A DNA stretch of 64,000 nt from Sedimentisphaerales bacterium. GTDB lineage: Bacteria; Planctomycetota; Phycisphaerae; Sedimentisphaerales; SM23-30. The stretch is from assembly GCA_963666285.1 (NCBI GenBank), contig OY762711.1; one strand, given 5' to 3'. This document shows, piece after piece, positions 42,372 through 50,938 of this stretch. The notes under the pieces are model-generated. The model worked only from the letters and a program-made list of their open reading frames with translations. It was not told the origin of the DNA and made no database searches. A program made the position numbers and the translations under genes. Position 1 is the first letter of the stretch. Each line of letters starts with the position of its first letter.

Positions 42372-45300
42372 ATGAAGCGGACTATCGATGAATTTACCAA
42401 TCTGTATTCTTTGAGTAAGACTTTGCGCTTTGAGCTTAAGCCAGTAGGTGAAACAGCGGAAAAGCTGGAAGAATTCAAAAATGAAGGATTAAAGACAATT
42501 GTCGAACAAGACAAAAATCGGGCAAAGGACTACAAGGAGATAAAAAAGATAATTGATAGCTATCATCGATATTTCATTGATGAAGTATTATCAGGAGAAA
42601 TATTAACTGCTGATGAGATTGTAGAAGCCTATAACCTGTACAGCAATGCCACTAAACCTGGGGCCGCAAAAGAGAAAAAAGAAGAATATGCAAAAACACA
42701 AGAGAAGTTAAGAAAGAAGATTTCCGAGAGGTTTTCTGCTGAGAGCAAGAAATACCATCTTTATAAAGGAGACTTTTCCAAGCTCATCAATATGCAAGGG
42801 TCCGGTAAAAATAAAACTAAAGGCAAATTATGGCACTGGCTAAAAGATAGACTTGATAGCGGAAAAATAACAAAAGAAGAATTTGATCAAGCTGACGAGT
42901 ATATAGCAGACTTTGATAAATTCACAACATACTTTGCTGGCTTTAATCAGAACAGGGATAATCTATATGTAGATAAGGACCAGTCAACTGCTATTGCCTA
43001 TCGCATAGTCCATGAGAATATGGCAAAGCATTTTGAGAATTGTAAGAGAATAAACAAAATTGAAATGGAAGAAAGATATTCAGAACTATCGGAATTACTT
43101 CGCTCTCGAAAAGAGATATTTAAGCCTGCTGAGTTTGTGAAATATCTCGGACAAAAAGGGATTGATATATATAACGAAGCAATCGGTCATAAGGCGGATG
43201 ATATAAATGCAAAAGGTATTAACCAGATAATTAATGAATACCGTCAGAAAAATAATATTAAACCGCGTGAACTGCCTGTAATGACGACATTATACAAGCA
43301 GATATTGAGTGATCGAGAAAACGGATTTGTGATTGATGAATTTTTGAGTGATAAAGAAGTATTTGAAGCTATTCAAGAAGTTAATAGAAGTTTAGTTGAT
43401 TCCGAGCTTGTTGAAAATATTATGAACTGTCTGGATGAATATATGCAAGCAGGCAGCCAAGTTGGAATGTACATAAAAAATGACCTTGCATTGACAGATA
43501 TTTCTCAAAAGTATTTCTGTGACTGGTCTTTAATTGGCAGGGCAATTAATGTTTATGCTGAAGAATCTTTAGGTCTTAATCTGGATAAGCGAGAAGCATT
43601 GAGTAAAGAAGATTTTTACTCAATAGAGTTTGTTCAAAAAACTGTTGATTATTACTATGATTCAATTAATATGCCAGATCAGAAAAAATATTTAGCGGAA
43701 TATTTCAGAGGATTTTCAGTTGATGGTAAATTGTTGAGTGATAGTTTTTGTGAAGCATATAAAGAAGTAGAAGCAGTATTAAAACAGGAAGAACTGAATA
43801 AAGACAGGCGGGTCCCCAAGGATGAAAAAGACAAAGGTGGAAAAGGATTTCAACAGATAGAGAAAATAAAGAAGTACCTGGACAGCGTGTTGGCAATTCA
43901 ACATTTTCTGAAACCACTATATATGATGAAAAGCGGCAAGATGATAGAGTTGGGAGAGAAAAACAGTGACTTTTATGACAGATTTAATCCGCTATATGAG
44001 AGTCTTTCAGACATTATCGGAGTATACAATAAAGTAAGGAATTATGTAACGAAAAAGCCCTACAAAACTGACAAATTTAAGATCAATTTTGAAAATAGCA
44101 CATTACTTGACGGTTGGGATGTTAATAAAGAAATTGCTAATAATAGCGTTTTATTATTCAAAGATAACAAATATTTCCTTGGAGTAATGAAAAAAGATTC
44201 TAACAATATGTTTAATTACAGACAGGAAGCAGATGATTCAAAAAACAAGTTGGAAGCTAAGAAAGCAATAGAGAAAAAGATAATAGCAACTGAATCTGAA
44301 GAATACTATGAAAAAATGGTTTACAAGCTTTTGCCAGATCCATCAAAAATGCTTCCAAAGGTATTTTTTAGTAAAAAGAACATCAATTATTATAGCCCTA
44401 CACAAGAAGTTTTGGAAATTCGAGAAAAAGGGTTATTTAAGAAGGCTGCAAACGACAAAAAATCAATGTATAAATGGATTGATTTCATGAAAGAATCTTT
44501 AGGGAGTCACCCTGAGTGGAATCAATATTTTGATTTCACTTTCACAAAAACTAAAGAATTTAGAGATAGTAGTGAGTTTTACAAAGAAGTTGCCGAACAG
44601 GGATATAGCCTAACATATGATAGAATCAAGAAATCATATATTGACGAACATGTTGCTAAGGGTAATTTATATCTATTTGAGATATACAATAAGGATATGT
44701 CGCCATACAGCAAGGGCAGGCCCAACCTCCATACAAGTTACTGGAAACTGTTATTTGCCCATGAAAACCTTAATGATCTTGTTATTAAATTAAATGGTCA
44801 AGCAGAAGTATTTTTCCGCCCACGATCGTTGAAAAAGAAAGAAACGGCAGTACACAAAGCAAATGAGGCAATAGAAAACAAGAACCCACTGAATGCCAAA
44901 AAGATTAGCAGATTTAACTATGATATAATAAAAGACAAAAGGTTCACACAAGATAAGTTTTTCTTTCACTGCCCTATCACGCTAAATTTCAAATCGGGTG
45001 GATTTGGCAAATTCAATGACAAAGTAATTGAGTTTTTGAGAAATAATCCAGATGTTTGTATTATTGGAATAGATAGAGGCGAACGTCATCTGCTGTATTA
45101 TACAGTTATAAATCAAAAAGGTGTAATCTTGGAACAAGGGAGTTTTAATACTATAACCAGCAATATGACAAGTGAAGGTAAGAAAGTCCCAATGACGACG
45201 GATTATCATAATCTGCTTGATAAAAAAGAGAAGGAGCGAGATGCTGCACGGAAAAGCTGGTCAGCAGTAGAGAATATAAAAGAACTCAAAAGCGGCTATT

Positions 45301-46244
45301 TGTCTCATGTAGTACACAAGCTGGCAACACTTATGGTTAAGCATAATGCTATAGTATGCCTGGAGGATCTGAATTTCGGGTTTAAACGCGGCAGGTTTAA
45401 ATTTGAAAAACAGGTATATCAGAAGTTTGAAAAAGCTCTTATAGATAAGTTGAATTACCTGGTATTTAAGGATAATAAACCGGAGGAAGCCGGACATTAT
45501 CTGAAAGCTTATCAGTTGACGGCTCCATTTGAGAGTTTTCAAAAGCTGGGAAAACAGAGCGGTTTTTTGTTTTATGTAACAAGTGACTATACATCAAAGA
45601 TTGATCCGGTGACAGGATTTGCCAATCGTATTAATACTAGGTACGAATCGGTCGAAAAGAGTTGTAAGCTTTTTGAGAAATTTGAGAGTATCCGGTATAG
45701 TCCAGAGAAGAATTATTTTGAATTTGTAATTGATTACTCACAACTGGAAGGAAGCGGGCTAGAGAAATGGACTATCTGTACGCACGGCAAGGAACGTTAC
45801 AGATATAACAGGGAAAAACAGAATTATGAATGTTATGACGTAACTTCAAACCTGAAAGATCTGTTTAGGTCAGAGCAAATAGAATATACAGCGGGAAAAG
45901 ATATAAGAGCCGACATTTTAGCTAGGAAAGAGAAGAAATATGCTGATTTCTTCAGGAAGTTACTATTCAACGTTTCATTAACAGTCCAATTGAGACATAC
46001 ATATAAAGTTAATAGCGAAGAGAAAGACTTTATTCTATCACCAGTAGCAAAAAATGGTAAGTTTTTTGACTCTCGTGAATACGAGAGTATAGAGAATTCG
46101 CAATTACCAATAAATGCAGATGCCAACGGAGCATATAATATAGCCAGGAAAGGTCTGCTGACATTATTAAAGCAAATTAATGAAGGAAATAAACCCTCAG
46201 CAATTAGGAATGCAGACTGGTTTGATTTTGTGCAGAAAAGATAA
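42372..46244 (+). CDS. cas12a: Type V-A CRISPR effector Cas12a (Cpf1)
   Basis: FTNLYSLSKTLRFELKP, DGWDVNKE, YKLLP..KMLPKVFFS, IIGIDRGERHL, LEDLNFGFKRGR, DANGAYNIARKG. Confidence 0.99.
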   Translation: MKRTIDEFTNLYSLSKTLRFELKPVGETAEKLEEFKNEGLKTIVEQDKNRAKDYKEIKKIIDSYHRYFIDEVLSGEILTADEIVEAYNLYSNATKPGAAKEKKEEYAKTQEKLRKKISERFSAESKKYHLYKGDFSKLINMQGSGKNKTKGKLWHWLKDRLDSGKITKEEFDQADEYIADFDKFTTYFAGFNQNRDNLYVDKDQSTAIAYRIVHENMAKHFENCKRINKIEMEERYSELSELLRSRKEIFKPAEFVKYLGQKGIDIYNEAIGHKADDINAKGINQIINEYRQKNNIKPRELPVMTTLYKQILSDRENGFVIDEFLSDKEVFEAIQEVNRSLVDSELVENIMNCLDEYMQAGSQVGMYIKNDLALTDISQKYFCDWSLIGRAINVYAEESLGLNLDKREALSKEDFYSIEFVQKTVDYYYDSINMPDQKKYLAEYFRGFSVDGKLLSDSFCEAYKEVEAVLKQEELNKDRRVPKDEKDKGGKGFQQIEKIKKYLDSVLAIQHFLKPLYMMKSGKMIELGEKNSDFYDRFNPLYESLSDIIGVYNKVRNYVTKKPYKTDKFKINFENSTLLDGWDVNKEIANNSVLLFKDNKYFLGVMKKDSNNMFNYRQEADDSKNKLEAKKAIEKKIIATESEEYYEKMVYKLLPDPSKMLPKVFFSKKNINYYSPTQEVLEIREKGLFKKAANDKKSMYKWIDFMKESLGSHPEWNQYFDFTFTKTKEFRDSSEFYKEVAEQGYSLTYDRIKKSYIDEHVAKGNLYLFEIYNKDMSPYSKGRPNLHTSYWKLLFAHENLNDLVIKLNGQAEVFFRPRSLKKKETAVHKANEAIENKNPLNAKKISRFNYDIIKDKRFTQDKFFFHCPITLNFKSGGFGKFNDKVIEFLRNNPDVCIIGIDRGERHLLYYTVINQKGVILEQGSFNTITSNMTSEGKKVPMTTDYHNLLDKKEKERDAARKSWSAVENIKELKSGYLSHVVHKLATLMVKHNAIVCLEDLNFGFKRGRFKFEKQVYQKFEKALIDKLNYLVFKDNKPEEAGHYLKAYQLTAPFESFQKLGKQSGFLFYVTSDYTSKIDPVTGFANRINTRYESVEKSCKLFEKFESIRYSPEKNYFEFVIDYSQLEGSGLEKWTICTHGKERYRYNREKQNYECYDVTSNLKDLFRSEQIEYTAGKDIRADILARKEKKYADFFRKLLFNVSLTVQLRHTYKVNSEEKDFILSPVAKNGKFFDSREYESIENSQLPINADANGAYNIARKGLLTLLKQINEGNKPSAIRNADWFDFVQKR

Positions 46245-46339
46245 AAAATAATTTAGTTAAGTTCTTTGACAATTAAATACGATATATCATACAAGATATA
46301 TAATTAATATGAGTGCAGTTCATTTGAGTGAGGTCATAG

Positions 46340-46903
46340 ATGGAGAGCTATATACCCATATCATATCTGAATGATTTTATATTTTGTCCGAGGTCGATCT
46401 ATTTCCATCAGCTCCATGGCCGGTTAAGCACGAAATTGTACCATGATGTCGCCCAGACAGCCGGTCGTGCAGCTCATGAAGCAATAGACAATAAGAAATA
46501 TTCCACTCGCAAGAATATTTTGCAGGGTATAGAGGTATATTGCTCTCAATACAATATTGCCGGTAAGATCGATATTTTTGACATTAAAACCGGTTTACTG
46601 ACTGAGCGTAAGAAGCAGATCAAAGCAATTTACGACGGCTATGTGTTCCAGTTATATGCCCAGTATTTCGGTTTGACAGAGGCTGGCTATGCGGTGAAAA
46701 CCATTCGTTTTTACAGTCGTGATGATAACAAGGTATGGCCGGTAGAATTACCAGACAATAATCAAGAAATGTTTGCTAAATTTGAAGAAACAGTTCGGCA
46801 AATACACAATTATGACCTCAATAATTATCGTCAGACAAATATAAAAAAATGTGAGAACTGCATATATGAGCCATTATGCGACCAATCTTTAGCGTTCAGA
46901 TAA
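46340..46903 (+). CDS. cas4: Cas4 (type V-A)
   Basis: ISYLNDFIFCPRSIYFH, GKID, ERK, QLYAQY, C..C.Y..LC. Confidence 0.95.
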   Translation: MESYIPISYLNDFIFCPRSIYFHQLHGRLSTKLYHDVAQTAGRAAHEAIDNKKYSTRKNILQGIEVYCSQYNIAGKIDIFDIKTGLLTERKKQIKAIYDGYVFQLYAQYFGLTEAGYAVKTIRFYSRDDNKVWPVELPDNNQEMFAKFEETVRQIHNYDLNNYRQTNIKKCENCIYEPLCDQSLAFR

Positions 46904-46918
46904 TAGAAGGGTAATGTT

Positions 46919-47902
46919 ATGTTAAGCGCACCAGATTTCAAACAGAAGCAAATTATCTTTGCCATGTTAAGCCATGGTGAACACTTAAGCTTTAAAAATG
47001 ACAATGTAATAATAAAAGACAGTGAAGGGGCGATCAAGCATCAATCAACATGCTACAGGCTGTTTGCTCTATTGATAGTAGGTCATATAAGCATAACAAG
47101 CGGTTTACTACAGCGAGCCGAGAAATTTGGCTTTACAATAGTACTAATGACCCATACCTTACGAGTTTACGGATTGTGGTCTTGCGGAGCTGAAGGCAAT
47201 GTCTTGCTGCGGAAGAAACAATATGATTATGAAAACTTATCTATAGCAAAACATATAGTCAAGAATAAGATCTTTAATCAATTATCAGCACTAAAACGTA
47301 TTCGAGGTAAAACAGAATCGCAACAAGCAGGGATAACAGACCTGCAATCATATTTGGAGCGTCTGGAAGAAACAAAAGATTTTGATTTACAGGAAATACT
47401 CGGTATAGAAGGAACTGCCGGTCGGTCATATTTCAAGAACATCTTTTCGGATTATAACTGGCAAGGTCGCCGTCCACGAGTAAAGCATGATATGACTAAC
47501 TGCATGATGGACATAGGCTATACGCTACTTTTTAACATAATAGAAGCCTTGCTCAAGGTGTATGGTTTTGACTTATATCGAGGTGTATATCATCAGGAAT
47601 TTTATCAGAGGAAATCGCTGGTATGCGACCTGGTTGAGCCGTTCAGGCCTTTGATTGACTGGCAAATACGGAAGTCATACAATTTGGGCCAGGTAAAGGA
47701 AAAAGATTTTACTATACGCCAGAATCAATATTGCCTATACGGTAAATCTGCAGGCCCATATATTGTAAATCTGCTTGAGCCGCTAATAAAAGAGAAGCAG
47801 AATATATTTCTCTATGTTCAGGGTTATTACCGCAGTTTTATGAAGGGCAAGGAAGCAGAAGAATTTCCATTTTATGAAATGGAGGCAGGTAAATGCTTAT
47901 AG
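46919..47902 (+). CDS. cas1: Cas1 (type V-A)
   Basis: GIEG..GR.YF, N..MDIGYT, GVYH..F..RKSLVCDLVEPFRP. Confidence 0.97.
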   Translation: MLSAPDFKQKQIIFAMLSHGEHLSFKNDNVIIKDSEGAIKHQSTCYRLFALLIVGHISITSGLLQRAEKFGFTIVLMTHTLRVYGLWSCGAEGNVLLRKKQYDYENLSIAKHIVKNKIFNQLSALKRIRGKTESQQAGITDLQSYLERLEETKDFDLQEILGIEGTAGRSYFKNIFSDYNWQGRRPRVKHDMTNCMMDIGYTLLFNIIEALLKVYGFDLYRGVYHQEFYQRKSLVCDLVEPFRPLIDWQIRKSYNLGQVKEKDFTIRQNQYCLYGKSAGPYIVNLLEPLIKEKQNIFLYVQGYYRSFMKGKEAEEFPFYEMEAGKCL

Positions 47903-48168
47903 TGTCATATGATATAAGTGACGACAAATTACGAACACGCTTTGCAAAATACTTGAAAAAGTTTGGATATAGATTACAATATTCGGTGTTCGAGGTGCGA
48001 AACAGTCCTCGCGTTCTAAACTGCATAGCAACTGAAATAGACAGTAATTTCGGTAAACAGTTCGAACAGAAAGACAGTGTAATAATATTTAACCTAAGCC
48101 AACAGTGCAAAAAGTACTGTTACGGTTATGCCCGAAATGACCAGGACGATTTGATAGTAATTGATTGA
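47893..48168 (+). CDS. cas2: Cas2
   Basis: MLIVSYDISDDKLR..L.KFG.RLQYSVFE. Confidence 0.97.
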   Translation: MLIVSYDISDDKLRTRFAKYLKKFGYRLQYSVFEVRNSPRVLNCIATEIDSNFGKQFEQKDSVIIFNLSQQCKKYCYGYARNDQDDLIVID

Positions 48169-48294
48169 AATGTAAACCCTGGTATTAATGGCCTGCGAAC
48201 CGTTAATATAGTTGAAAATATGCCGATTATAACGATTATATCTGGATTTGCCTGTAAACTTACACAATCTGTAATGTTTGTACGAAGAATAGCC
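48169..48294 (+). promoter_or_regulatory. CRISPR leader
   Basis: AT-rich 126 nt between cas2 and the first repeat. Confidence 0.7.
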
Positions 48295-48918
48295 GTCTAG
48301 AAGACATATTAAATTTCTACTGTTGTAGATGTTTTAGAACCACAGATGGACACGGAGTCTAGAAGACATATTAAATTTCTACTGTTGTAGATTCGATTCC
48401 TTACCACCCGCAGAGCAAGTCTAGAAGACATATTAAATTTCTACTGTTGTAGATTACGATCAGCATTGGTTAAATCAGCAGGTCTAGAAGACATATTAAA
48501 TTTCTACTGTTGTAGATTTCTTACTTGGTGTTATCTCTCAAATAGGTCTAGAAGACATATTAAATTTCTACTGTTGTAGATCTAAGTCGCATGCTCTGTG
48601 AATTACAGTCTAGAAGACATATTAAATTTCTACTGTTGTAGATCTGATATCATGGACGGATTATAAGCTTGTCTAGAAGACATATTAAATTTCTACTGTT
48701 GTAGATATAATAATTAGTATCTCTTTTGCTTTGGTCTAGAAGACATATTAAATTTCTACTGTTGTAGATTTACAATATCTTTTGCCTCAATATCTGTCTA
48801 GAAGACATATTAAATTTCTACTGTTGTAGATCGAACGTATACCCCCCTGTCTTCAGGGGTCTAGAAGACATATTAAATTTCTACTGTTGTAGATATAGTT
48901 TCGTGCCTTTCGTGTTTT
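48295..48918 (+). CRISPR. Type V-A array, part 1: repeats 1-10, spacers 1-9 (26-28 nt), left part of spacer 10
   Basis: Repeat GTCTAGAAGACATATTAAATTTCTACTGTTGTAGAT at 48295, 48357, 48419, 48482, 48546, 48608, 48671, 48734, 48796, 48859; canonical Cas12a handle. Confidence 0.99.
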
Positions 48919-49041
48919 TCTATGAAGCCAGAATGCAACATTAATTTTCTAATTTTATTCATTTTTGCTATAATTCCTTTATCTTGCAAAGGATAGGGCT
49001 CTGCTGAGGAGCAACCCGAGCGTTGCAAGTTGTCGAGAAGC

Positions 49042-49070
49042 CGGGGCGGTTTTACACCGCCTCGTTTTTT
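49042..49070 (+). terminator. Intrinsic terminator inside IS
   Basis: CGGGGCGGT-tttac-ACCGCCTCG-TTTTTT. Confidence 0.75.
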
Positions 49071-49139
49071 GCTTTTTGACCTTATGCGATAAACCTATTT
49101 AAAACAATTTTCGCGTAGCGAATCATTATTTACCTGATT

Positions 49140-49270
49140 GTTTCATCTTTCTATCCGGAGTGTCCGAGGCTGTATTTTACGCCATGGTTCCATTATATAT
49201 ATTGCGATACGGCTTAATTTTCGTGTCAGGTTCAAAACCCAAATGCACGACCAAGGTTCCGTATCGATTT
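49140..49270 (-). ncRNA. Putative bridge/seek RNA of the IS1111-type element
   Basis: Stem CGATACGG/CCGTATCG enclosing matches to the insertion site; adjacent hairpin flanked by matches to the element ends. Confidence 0.7.
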
Positions 49271-49319
49271 CAATCGGGAAAAATCATAGGTAATATTTTA
49301 TCTTTTACTTATATTGGTA

Positions 49320-50366
49320 TCAAACACTTTGCAACTCGGGCATCTGCCAACTTGTCCCATCTCGCATCATCGCCCACAATCGTACGAACAACCGTCGGGC
49401 TGTAGCTACTATCGCTATTTTTGCACGAGTTTTACTTCCCCTCTTTATTCTTTCGTATGTTTCTTTTATCCATGGATTCCAACGCAAACCCAGCCAGCAA
49501 ACCTCAACAAGTAATGCTCGCAATAACCTATTGCCATATTTACTTATCCGCCCATGACGGTCTGTATTACCTGATTGGTACTGACGCGGTGTCATACCAA
49601 TATAGCTGCCAACTTGTTTGCAATTCTTAAATCTATGTGGATCATCAATATAAGCTGCAACTGCCTCTGCCAGACGTGGGCCAACTCCGGGAACAGTCTG
49701 TAATAGTTTTACTTTTTCATCAGTACTATTTAACTCTTCCAGTTTATCTTCAACTACTTGCAAAGCGTCTGTTAATTGTTCCAGTAATATAAGCTCGCTC
49801 CATAGATTGCCTTTCCAGAGCTCATCTGGTTTAACTTTATCCATTGGCATAGCCATACTTCTTAACTGTTCCAGATTCTGCTTAGACCAGCACTTTCTGC
49901 CTGACGGCAACGAATACGCCTGGGCATTTAATAAAGAACGAATAGTATTTTTTACCTGAGTTATCCGTTCTGTAAGGCTCTGGCGATAATTAATTAAAGA
50001 TCGTTTCTCGCGAATTTCCTTTTTAGGAACATAGACAGTTGATAAATCTCCTAAAGCAGCACGCTTGGCCAGCCAAAATGCATCCTTTTTATCTGTTTTC
50101 TTCTTCAATTTTCTGCCAGACCATTCGCCGGTATTAGTATTTGCCACTTCATATTTTAATTCCAGGGTGTCAAAAAGGTCACAAATCCAGCCTATGATAT
50201 CACAAGCCTCAAATACAATAAGATCAGCAGGGTGAGATACTGCCAGGTCATGAAGCTCTTGAGGGTTAGTCTTAAACGACTTATATGTAGCCTTACAGCT
50301 TTTTACCTCATAAAAACAAACTACACTCTTGAATTTTCCTAAATCAATTGACATAATAGTCTTCAT
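49320..50366 (-). CDS. IS110-family DEDD recombinase/transposase
   Basis: IDLGK, VFEA, KTDKKDA (DEDD); TVPGVG; YIGMTP.QYQSG (catalytic Ser); AIVATARRL. Confidence 0.97.
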   Translation of the reverse strand: MKTIMSIDLGKFKSVVCFYEVKSCKATYKSFKTNPQELHDLAVSHPADLIVFEACDIIGWICDLFDTLELKYEVANTNTGEWSGRKLKKKTDKKDAFWLAKRAALGDLSTVYVPKKEIREKRSLINYRQSLTERITQVKNTIRSLLNAQAYSLPSGRKCWSKQNLEQLRSMAMPMDKVKPDELWKGNLWSELILLEQLTDALQVVEDKLEELNSTDEKVKLLQTVPGVGPRLAEAVAAYIDDPHRFKNCKQVGSYIGMTPRQYQSGNTDRHGRISKYGNRLLRALLVEVCWLGLRWNPWIKETYERIKRGSKTRAKIAIVATARRLFVRLWAMMRDGTSWQMPELQSV

Positions 50367-50489
50367 AGCCAGAATACTCCGTATAAAATAGGTTAAATAT
50401 TTGAGCGTCCCTGTGACAGCTCGTGCTAAAATTATTGTGTATTATAACACAAGCCATGCTACAGGAATATTCTGGCTTTCATTGTATTT

Positions 50490-50718
50490 TCGTGGTCTAG
50501 AAGACATATTAAATTTCTACTGTTGTAGATTCACATCATCGCTTATTGATGAAGATGGTCTAGAAGACATATTAAATTTCTACTGTTGTAGATTTGCCTT
50601 CTTTCTTTTAAGTTTTATAGTCTAGAAGACATATTAAATTTCTACTGTTGTAGATTAAAAAAGGTGACGTGATCGATTATGGGTCTAGAAGACATATTAA
50701 ATTTCTACTGTTGTAGAT
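50490..50718 (+). CRISPR. Type V-A array, part 2: end of spacer 10, repeats 11-14, spacers 11-13
   Basis: Same repeat at 50495, 50558, 50620, 50683. Confidence 0.99.
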
Positions 50719-50816
50719 TTGGCTCCGCCCTTAGAACATACGAGCAGTTGAACAGTAAAAAGAGGAGAGAGGCGGGAAGAAATTATAAATTATAAATGTT
50801 GAATTATGAAAAAAAA

Positions 50817-50867
50817 TCTCATCTTTTATCGGATTCCATATAAGGGAGAACCAGATAAAAGATGAGA
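50817..50867. terminator. Hairpin between array and convergent lysA
   Basis: TCTCATCTTTTATC-N23-GATAAAAGATGAGA; A-run on the left gives a U tract for the minus strand. Confidence 0.55.
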
Positions 50868-50938
50868 AAAGTTATATGTAAAGATCGCATTAAATCCACC
50901 ATTAAACTAGTGGACCGGCAGCCCTGAGACAAGGCTAT

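What the first reader, a model, noticed from the sequence alone, without database searches (positions are those of the whole stretch)
49140..49270. Readable bridge/seek RNA with guides matching the insertion site
Downstream of tnp, the minus-strand RNA folds CGAUACGG(49266..49259)..UCGUG(49250..49246)..GGUU-uug-AACC..CACGAAAA(49225..49218)..CCGUAUCG(49212..49205). CACGAAAA equals the left target + core and UCGUG is complementary to the right target CACGA, i.e. a target-binding loop in right-then-left order. A second small hairpin (CGGA/UCCG) is flanked by AAAAUACA (49178..49171) and AUAGAAA (49154..49148), matching the two element ends. Both matches are on the same strand, which is unlike a canonical donor loop. 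This is a candidate programmable recombinase.
Basis: partly seen in the sequence, partly recalled or inferred. Interest (0 to 1): 0.75.

Follow-up and report, generated by a model that had tools for sequence, protein, structure and literature searches.

The report
Guide RNA of an IS1111 transposon
This is the guide RNA of a jumping gene of a known RNA-guided family: it aims the element at a short repeat scattered through the host chromosome, and one copy landed in a look-alike CRISPR spacer.

Summary
The target loop is real and the motifs sit at the stated coordinates. It belongs to a 1,571-bp IS1111-type element (48919-50489, minus strand; DEDD/Ser recombinase) with 9 near-identical copies in the genome. 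Across 26-27 related elements with different targets, both target guides track the flanks (4.2/5 and 5.6/7; shuffled 1.6 and 3.2). Right-then-left order is the published IS1111 signature. The natural target is a dispersed host repeat (7 of 9 copies); the Cas12a spacer is a weaker look-alike. AUAGAAA is a true left-donor guide (6.9/7). AAAAUACA lies in a variable hairpin and is chance. The right-donor guide is probably UAUAU (49199-49195), antisense as expected. The family loop has IS621 geometry (9-nt guide, U, hairpin, 5+2+2-nt guide, U; core usually AG, the reverse complement of CT) read from the other DNA strand. A putative handshake dinucleotide tracks the element end in 26 of 27 elements, but rests on about two independent changes. 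No expression or activity data. Verdict: new member of a known kind, well decoded.

The parts
48919..50489 (-). IS1111-type insertion sequence, 1,571 bp; one of 9 copies in the genome
   Evidence: ends set by the published 7+3 rule and supported by left-donor-guide covariation
49320..50366 (-). 348-aa DEDD recombinase (D8, E53, D92, D95; Tnp-domain S265)
   Evidence: Pfam PF01548 + PF02371; residues invariant in 10 of 10 aligned homologs; nearest PDB chains ISCro4 and IS621
50469..50489 (-). Left end: 7-nt extension (50489-50483), then subterminal inverted repeat; holds the -10 hexamer (50486-50481) of the predicted circle-junction promoter
   Evidence: promoter inferred, not measured
48919..48938 (-). 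Right end: -35 hexamer (48938-48933), subterminal inverted repeat (48934-48922), 3-nt extension
   Evidence: 17-bp hexamer spacing in the joined circle; 13-bp IR with a 1-nt indel
49134..49277 (-). Predicted long seek/bridge RNA, about 145 nt, closed by stem 49275-49271 / 49140-49136
   Evidence: closing stem 82% of cells paired, covariation score above all 500 shuffles; RNA ends inferred
49242..49251 (-). Right-target guide (pairs with the top strand: core plus about 7 nt); closed by stem 49255-49252 / 49216-49213
   Evidence: 5.58/7 vs 3.18 shuffled, n=27; stems
49227..49241 (-). Inner hairpin of the target loop; its first U is invariant in 24 of 24
49217..49226 (-). Left-target guide: 5 nt left target, 2-nt core, then 2 nt (49218-49217) that match element left-end positions 3-4 (putative handshake)
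   Evidence: 4.21/5 vs 1.55 (n=26); core 27 of 27; extension 26 of 27
49195..49199 (-). Probable right-donor guide UAUAU (antisense to left-end positions 3-7; 4 of 5 here)
   Evidence: 4.00/5 vs 3.54 shuffled, n=27; 3.93 vs 3.42 with one per cluster, n=15
49157..49191 (-). Donor-arm junction: 3-bp stem 49191-49189 / 49159-49157 enclosing a variable hairpin that contains AAAAUACA
   Evidence: 94% of cells paired, 3 of 3 pairs with changes on both sides
49148..49154 (-). Left-donor guide AUAGAAA (last 5 nt of the element plus core)
   Evidence: 6.93/7 vs 6.09 shuffled, n=27
48295..50718 (+). Type V-A (Cas12a) CRISPR array, 14 identical 36-nt repeats; spacer 10 (48895-48918 and 50490-50494) is split by the element
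   Evidence: cas12a, cas4, cas1, cas2 at 42372-48168
48969..49078 (+). Second, antisense RNA-like module in the right end: -10 box, conserved hairpin core (48992-49021), terminator (49042-49064)
   Evidence: no Rfam match; role unknown

Best explanation
An IS1111-group RNA-guided recombinase element. Inferred from the family: it leaves as a circle whose joined ends form a sigma-70 promoter, which transcribes tnp and the downstream RNA. The roughly 145-nt RNA binds the recombinase. Its 10x10-nt internal loop reads a 5+2+7-bp target on both strands, and a multiloop reads the circle junction, so insertion occurs at a 2-bp core (AA here). Shown by sequence comparison: guide positions, registers, natural retargeting and the 2-bp core. 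The programmed target is a non-coding host repeat. The CRISPR copy is a near-match insertion into a spacer that resembles this repeat; the last two bases of the CRISPR repeat complete the 7-nt left flank shared by all nine sites. The loop geometry equals IS621's with the DNA read from the opposite strand, which accounts for the right-then-left order (inferred).
For: 9 copies, all with the same 7-nt left flank; 7 in one host repeat. In the element-free chromosome only 18 sites reach the best guide score; 7 of 9 insertions are among them and 2 among the next 29. Permutation tests, all elements and one per cluster, p<0.001 for the four guides and the core. Four elements fetched after the registers were fixed scored 4-5/5, 7/7 and 4/5, with right-target 3-7/7. 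The 66%-identical G017 element has both target guides and both flanks changed together; G1176 and G1181 differ likewise in the right guide. Core shared by both junctions at 50 of 58 sites. Stems covary. Catalytic residues intact. IS621 geometry from PMC11208158 passages; two linker Us invariant in 24 of 24; core AG in 23 of 27.
Against: No RNA, circle or activity data. In this element the two target guides are complementary and close the loop in the predicted fold. The right-donor guide is short, never complements the core, and has few informative changes. Four single-site elements match their right flank poorly (L065 1/7, L091 2/7, L063 3/7, L118 3/7). Registers were chosen by eye on many of the elements later tested, and kin are not independent. 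The shared two bases upstream of the 5-nt left target are not guide-encoded, and a better-scoring site 9 nt away in the same spacer was not used.
Confidence: 0.87

Rival explanations
1. Seek-only model: only the target arm is needed; the ends are recognised by protein through the inverted repeats, and the donor matches are accessory.
For: An 82-nt target-only seekRNA supports ISEc11 movement (PMC11187229). The donor half folds weakly here and the right-donor guide is 4 of 5.
Against: The left-donor guide follows the element end through five or more end types, 6.93/7; the donor-arm and closing stems covary.
Confidence: 0.15
2. One reading: a non-canonical donor loop in which AAAAUACA and AUAGAAA read both element ends on the same strand.
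For: Exact 8-nt match in this element; marginal p=0.03 in the hairpin test, to which this element's own 7/7 contributes.
Against: Others match 1-6 of 7; G017 has 4/7; a close relative has two changes inside the motif (one contig); 9% chance; the flanking hairpin is not conserved.
Confidence: 0.03
3. The element is programmed to hit CRISPR arrays as a counter-defence.
For: It splits spacer 10 and places a terminator-like hairpin in the array's direction.
Against: 8 of 9 copies are outside the array; the CRISPR site scores 7+5 against 7+6 for the host repeat; the guides match the spacer, not the CRISPR repeat; no other examined element lay in a recognisable array (read by eye).
Confidence: 0.04

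Closest known systems
IS1111-family seekRNA elements (ISEc11, ISKpn4, ISPa11; PMC11187229)
   Same: Subterminal IRs with 7+3 extensions, downstream non-coding region, 348-aa DEDD transposase, top-strand match 5' of bottom-strand match, junction promoter, long RNA of about 145 nt, repeat target as for ISPa11.
   Different: Different target; IR has a 1-nt indel; donor guides are resolved here by covariation; extra antisense RNA-like module; identity to those named proteins not measured.
IS621 / ISCro4 bridge RNA (PMC11208160, PMC11208158)
   Same: Four guides, 2-bp core, catalytic DEDD plus Ser, guide lengths and linker Us, putative handshake dinucleotide after the 3' guide.
   Different: RNA downstream of tnp, guide order reversed relative to tnp, donor guides in a multiloop, long inverted repeats; protein similarity only E about 1e-15.
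IS110 insertions in CRISPR arrays (Thermoanaerobacter; PMC4852346)
   Same: An IS110-superfamily element splits an array.
   Different: There repeatedly, splitting arrays in several genomes; here once, in a spacer that mimics a host repeat.
ISPpu9 with ssr9 (PMC12288879)
   Same: Repeat-targeting IS110 carrying an additional small-RNA gene downstream of tnp that also occurs alone.
   Different: No sequence comparison made; the module here is antisense to tnp and lies inside the inverted repeats.

Membership tests
IS1111 group | Subterminal inverted repeats, usually 11-13 bp | tested here: met
   13 bp with one indel, 10 bp perfect
IS1111 group | 7-bp left and 3-bp right extensions | tested here: met
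   Gives 17-bp promoter spacing, a shared core at 50 of 58 sites and 6.93/7 left-donor match
IS1111 group | Long non-coding region downstream of tnp | tested here: met
   About 400 nt downstream, 123 nt upstream
IS1111 group | DEDD transposase of 330-350 aa with G-P----SG motif | tested here: met
   348 aa
IS1111 group | Top-strand match 5' of bottom-strand match | tested here: met
IS1111 group | Placement in the IS1111 clade against curated reference transposases | not tested
   No tree with named references was built; best plasmid hits are annotated only as IS110 family
IS1111 group | Circular intermediate and RNA co-purifying with the transposase | not testable with these tools
   Contigs only; no circle joint listed
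IS110 group proper (IS621 type) | Bridge RNA in the left end, short STIRs | tested here: not met
   RNA is in the right end; IRs are long
Bridge RNA (bispecific) | Donor guides covarying with the circle junction | tested here: met
   Left guide strong, right guide weaker
Bridge RNA (bispecific) | Handshake dinucleotides pairing with the non-cognate DNA | tested here: inconclusive
   Target loop 26 of 27 vs element end (p=0.009 one per cluster), about two independent changes and one wobble-compatible miss; donor loop only the first base, 0.48 vs 0.33, 1 of 4 in the late set and absent here

The most novel reading that the evidence does not exclude
The IS1111 'reversed guide order' is the IS621 loop unchanged, engaging DNA from the opposite strand, with a handshake dinucleotide after the left-target guide that reads the element's left end. 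If so, these elements exchange the bottom strand first and the IS621 design rules transfer by reverse complement. The same dinucleotide would let a target-only seekRNA recognise the left junction, a possible answer to why short seekRNAs work. I did not find this stated in the passages read (searches), but Extended Data Fig. 10c of PMC11208160 and two Science papers seen only as references could not be viewed.
Probability: 0.6. Interest if true: 0.55.

Novelty: new member of a known kind. Interest (0 to 1): 0.4.

Why it matters
It adds a multi-copy, probably recently active IS1111 recombinase with all four guides mapped to the base, plus about 27 naturally retargeted relatives. That gives a ready design code for a group that has no matching structure in the PDB copy searched and makes the open question of seek-only versus bridge mechanism testable. 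It also shows how a CRISPR spacer resembling a host repeat becomes a landing site that may cut off the older spacers. The system type itself is known.

Tried and rejected
Rfam: no match at E<=1 in 48100-50900 or in 10 related loci. Single-protein scans of metagenome and genome contigs gave only 27-32% relatives; viral contigs gave 1 locus. No RNA holder listed. Four runs were contigs only; the array spacers had no cover and one contig skipped the array at a repeat, read as uninformative. A 20-nt part of spacer 10 matched 1 viral contig but did not extend, so treated as chance; best ungapped match elsewhere in the genome 21 of 29. Guide-guide pairing is not a family feature (38% paired). The extension of the left-target guide does not track the right target (0.50 vs 0.49). 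Rows left out of the tests: L043 (second host family); L061 and L066 from the right-target test (misaligned); L036, L056, L085, L122, L015 (end or RNA missing); 13 loci with a different RNA layout (L053, L058, L064, L067, L070, L072, L073, L076, L097, L115, L120, L121, L137). Alignment A1 used 24 of 29 sequences. The second module: 0 viral-contig matches, 1 chance plasmid hit, 0 papers with its core string, no earlier scan note. No structure or complex prediction was run.

Full report
Setting. The 131 nt lie downstream of a 348-aa IS110-superfamily transposase on the minus strand with D8, E53, D92, D95 and S265 invariant among 10 homologs. The element interrupts spacer 10 of a 14-repeat Cas12a array. 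It has subterminal inverted repeats, and the published 7+3 rule (PMC11187229; parts 1-5 of 9 read) sets its ends at 50489 and 48919. Joining these ends gives -35 and -10 hexamers 17 bp apart. An earlier scan note calls the host Planctomycetota; I did not test that.

Observation. All quoted motifs are where stated. The target arm folds far better than shuffles, the donor half does not. Matches of 8 nt to a junction occur in about 10% of shuffles, so the single sequence proves little.

Copies and true target. The genome holds 9 copies at 98.5-100% identity, identical through the guide region. All nine share one 7-nt left flank. Seven sit in a non-coding dispersed repeat (20 BLAST stretches), one in a similar site and one in the spacer. 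With the elements removed, 18 chromosomal sites reach the best guide score; 7 are occupied, and the other two insertions are among 29 sites one match lower. The CRISPR site is therefore a near-match. IS110 insertions in arrays are already described (PMC4852346, passages).

Covariation. Homologs of 39-66% identity came from searches of 61, 401, 401, 401 and 141 genomes, which overlap. The RNAs were aligned without using the flanks and fixed columns were scored against each element's own and shuffled flanks. All elements: left-target 4.21/5 vs 1.55 (n=26), core 2/2 in 27 of 27, right-target 5.58/7 vs 3.18 (n=27, one-base slip allowed in both), left-donor 6.93/7 vs 6.09, right-donor 4.00/5 vs 3.54 (n=27). 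With one element per protein cluster (n=12-15) these held at p<0.001. Four elements fetched after the registers were fixed agreed, except one right flank at 3/7. Caveats: registers were chosen by eye, kin are not independent, most donors are alike, and four single-site elements fit their right flank poorly. The nearest relative (G017, 66%) changed both target guides, the core and its flanks together. A contig about 92% identical over 49129-49520 shows four listed substitutions in the target guides; its flanks were not visible and the table was cut.

Structure. The family consensus is a 10x10-nt internal loop between two covarying stems, then a 3-bp stem enclosing a variable hairpin (93% of cells paired, 9 of 12 pairs with changes on both sides), all closed by a long-range stem. 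This fits the multiloop donor region that PMC11208160 describes for IS1111 (passages; figures and supplements not seen). AAAAUACA lies in the variable hairpin, is not matched in other elements and carries two changes in the close relative. Because the target is a direct repeat, the two target guides are complementary here, and the open loop costs about 8 kcal/mol; the protein presumably holds it open (inference).

Mechanism. PMC11208158 (passages) gives the IS621 target loop as a 9-nt guide, U59, hairpin, a guide over 5 positions plus core, handshake 81-82, U83, with a CT core. This family shows the same lengths, both Us invariant in 24 of 24, and core AG in 23 of 27. The two bases after the left-target core match element left-end positions 3-4 in 26 of 27 elements and do not track the target. 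The informative changes are few (AT in this element and G017, AG in L061), and G1180 has AG against AA, a wobble-compatible miss. The donor-loop counterpart is weak and absent here. I read this as the IS621 loop engaging DNA from the other strand, with moderate confidence; PMC11187229 instead suggests the mechanics may differ. Circle formation, expression, strand order and activity are inferred from the family, not shown. Other papers seen as passages only: PMC13626964, PMC13604230, PMC10883916, PMC12288879, bioRxiv 10.1101/2025.10.25.684509 (supplements not seen). Perry 2025 and Pelea 2026 were seen only as references and may cover IS1111 guides.

Effect on the array. By recalled repeat orientation and leader position the array is read on the plus strand. 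The element puts a terminator-like hairpin at 49042-49064 in that direction, which may cut off spacers 11 onward (inference).

Verdict. Real feature, IS1111 member on all five sequence tests run (tree placement not tested), correct in its main idea and wrong on the donor loop. New member of a known kind; interest 0.4.

Noticed in passing
window 48969-49078, + strand: A second RNA-like module inside the right end, antisense to tnp: -10 box, invariant hairpin core with a covarying closing stem (11 of 18 pairs), terminator. Its core occurs in 16 of 151 genomes of the order with no control hits, next to varied genes including several unrelated transposases, and in 3 of 42 related IS loci. No Rfam match. 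Possibly a mobile small RNA.
   Followed up: partly
window 48393-48418 (spacer 2): Matches the host's own chromosome at 25 of 26 nt (C1 near 5307713), inside a Mu-type transposase gene followed by an AAA ATPase and GemA, so a resident Mu-like prophage; upstream bases CTTC, not the recalled TTTV PAM.
   Followed up: partly
window 48331-48356 (spacer 1) and spacer 10: Two of 13 spacers resemble short dispersed-repeat classes of the host (best self matches 21 of 26 and 21 of 29), suggesting capture from repeat-rich DNA of a relative.
   Followed up: partly
L040-L043 (G000 C1): A second IS1111-type family (4 copies, 34% identity) has the same 5-nt left-target guide and hits a related repeat; its RNA core reads AG while the DNA core is AT.
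   Followed up: no
L053, L058, L064, L073, L097, L115, L120, L137: A sister subfamily with a different RNA layout; the 7+3 register used here does not obviously fit it.
   Followed up: no
G000 insertion sites; L031-L039; L055 group: One-base slips of the right target at the core occur in several elements (2 of 9 sites here), and all 9 sites here share two upstream bases that the guide does not encode.
   Followed up: partly
L033, L037, L055, L080: Tandem or duplicated left-end fragments beside G020 and G192 copies suggest repeated insertion at the same target.
   Followed up: no
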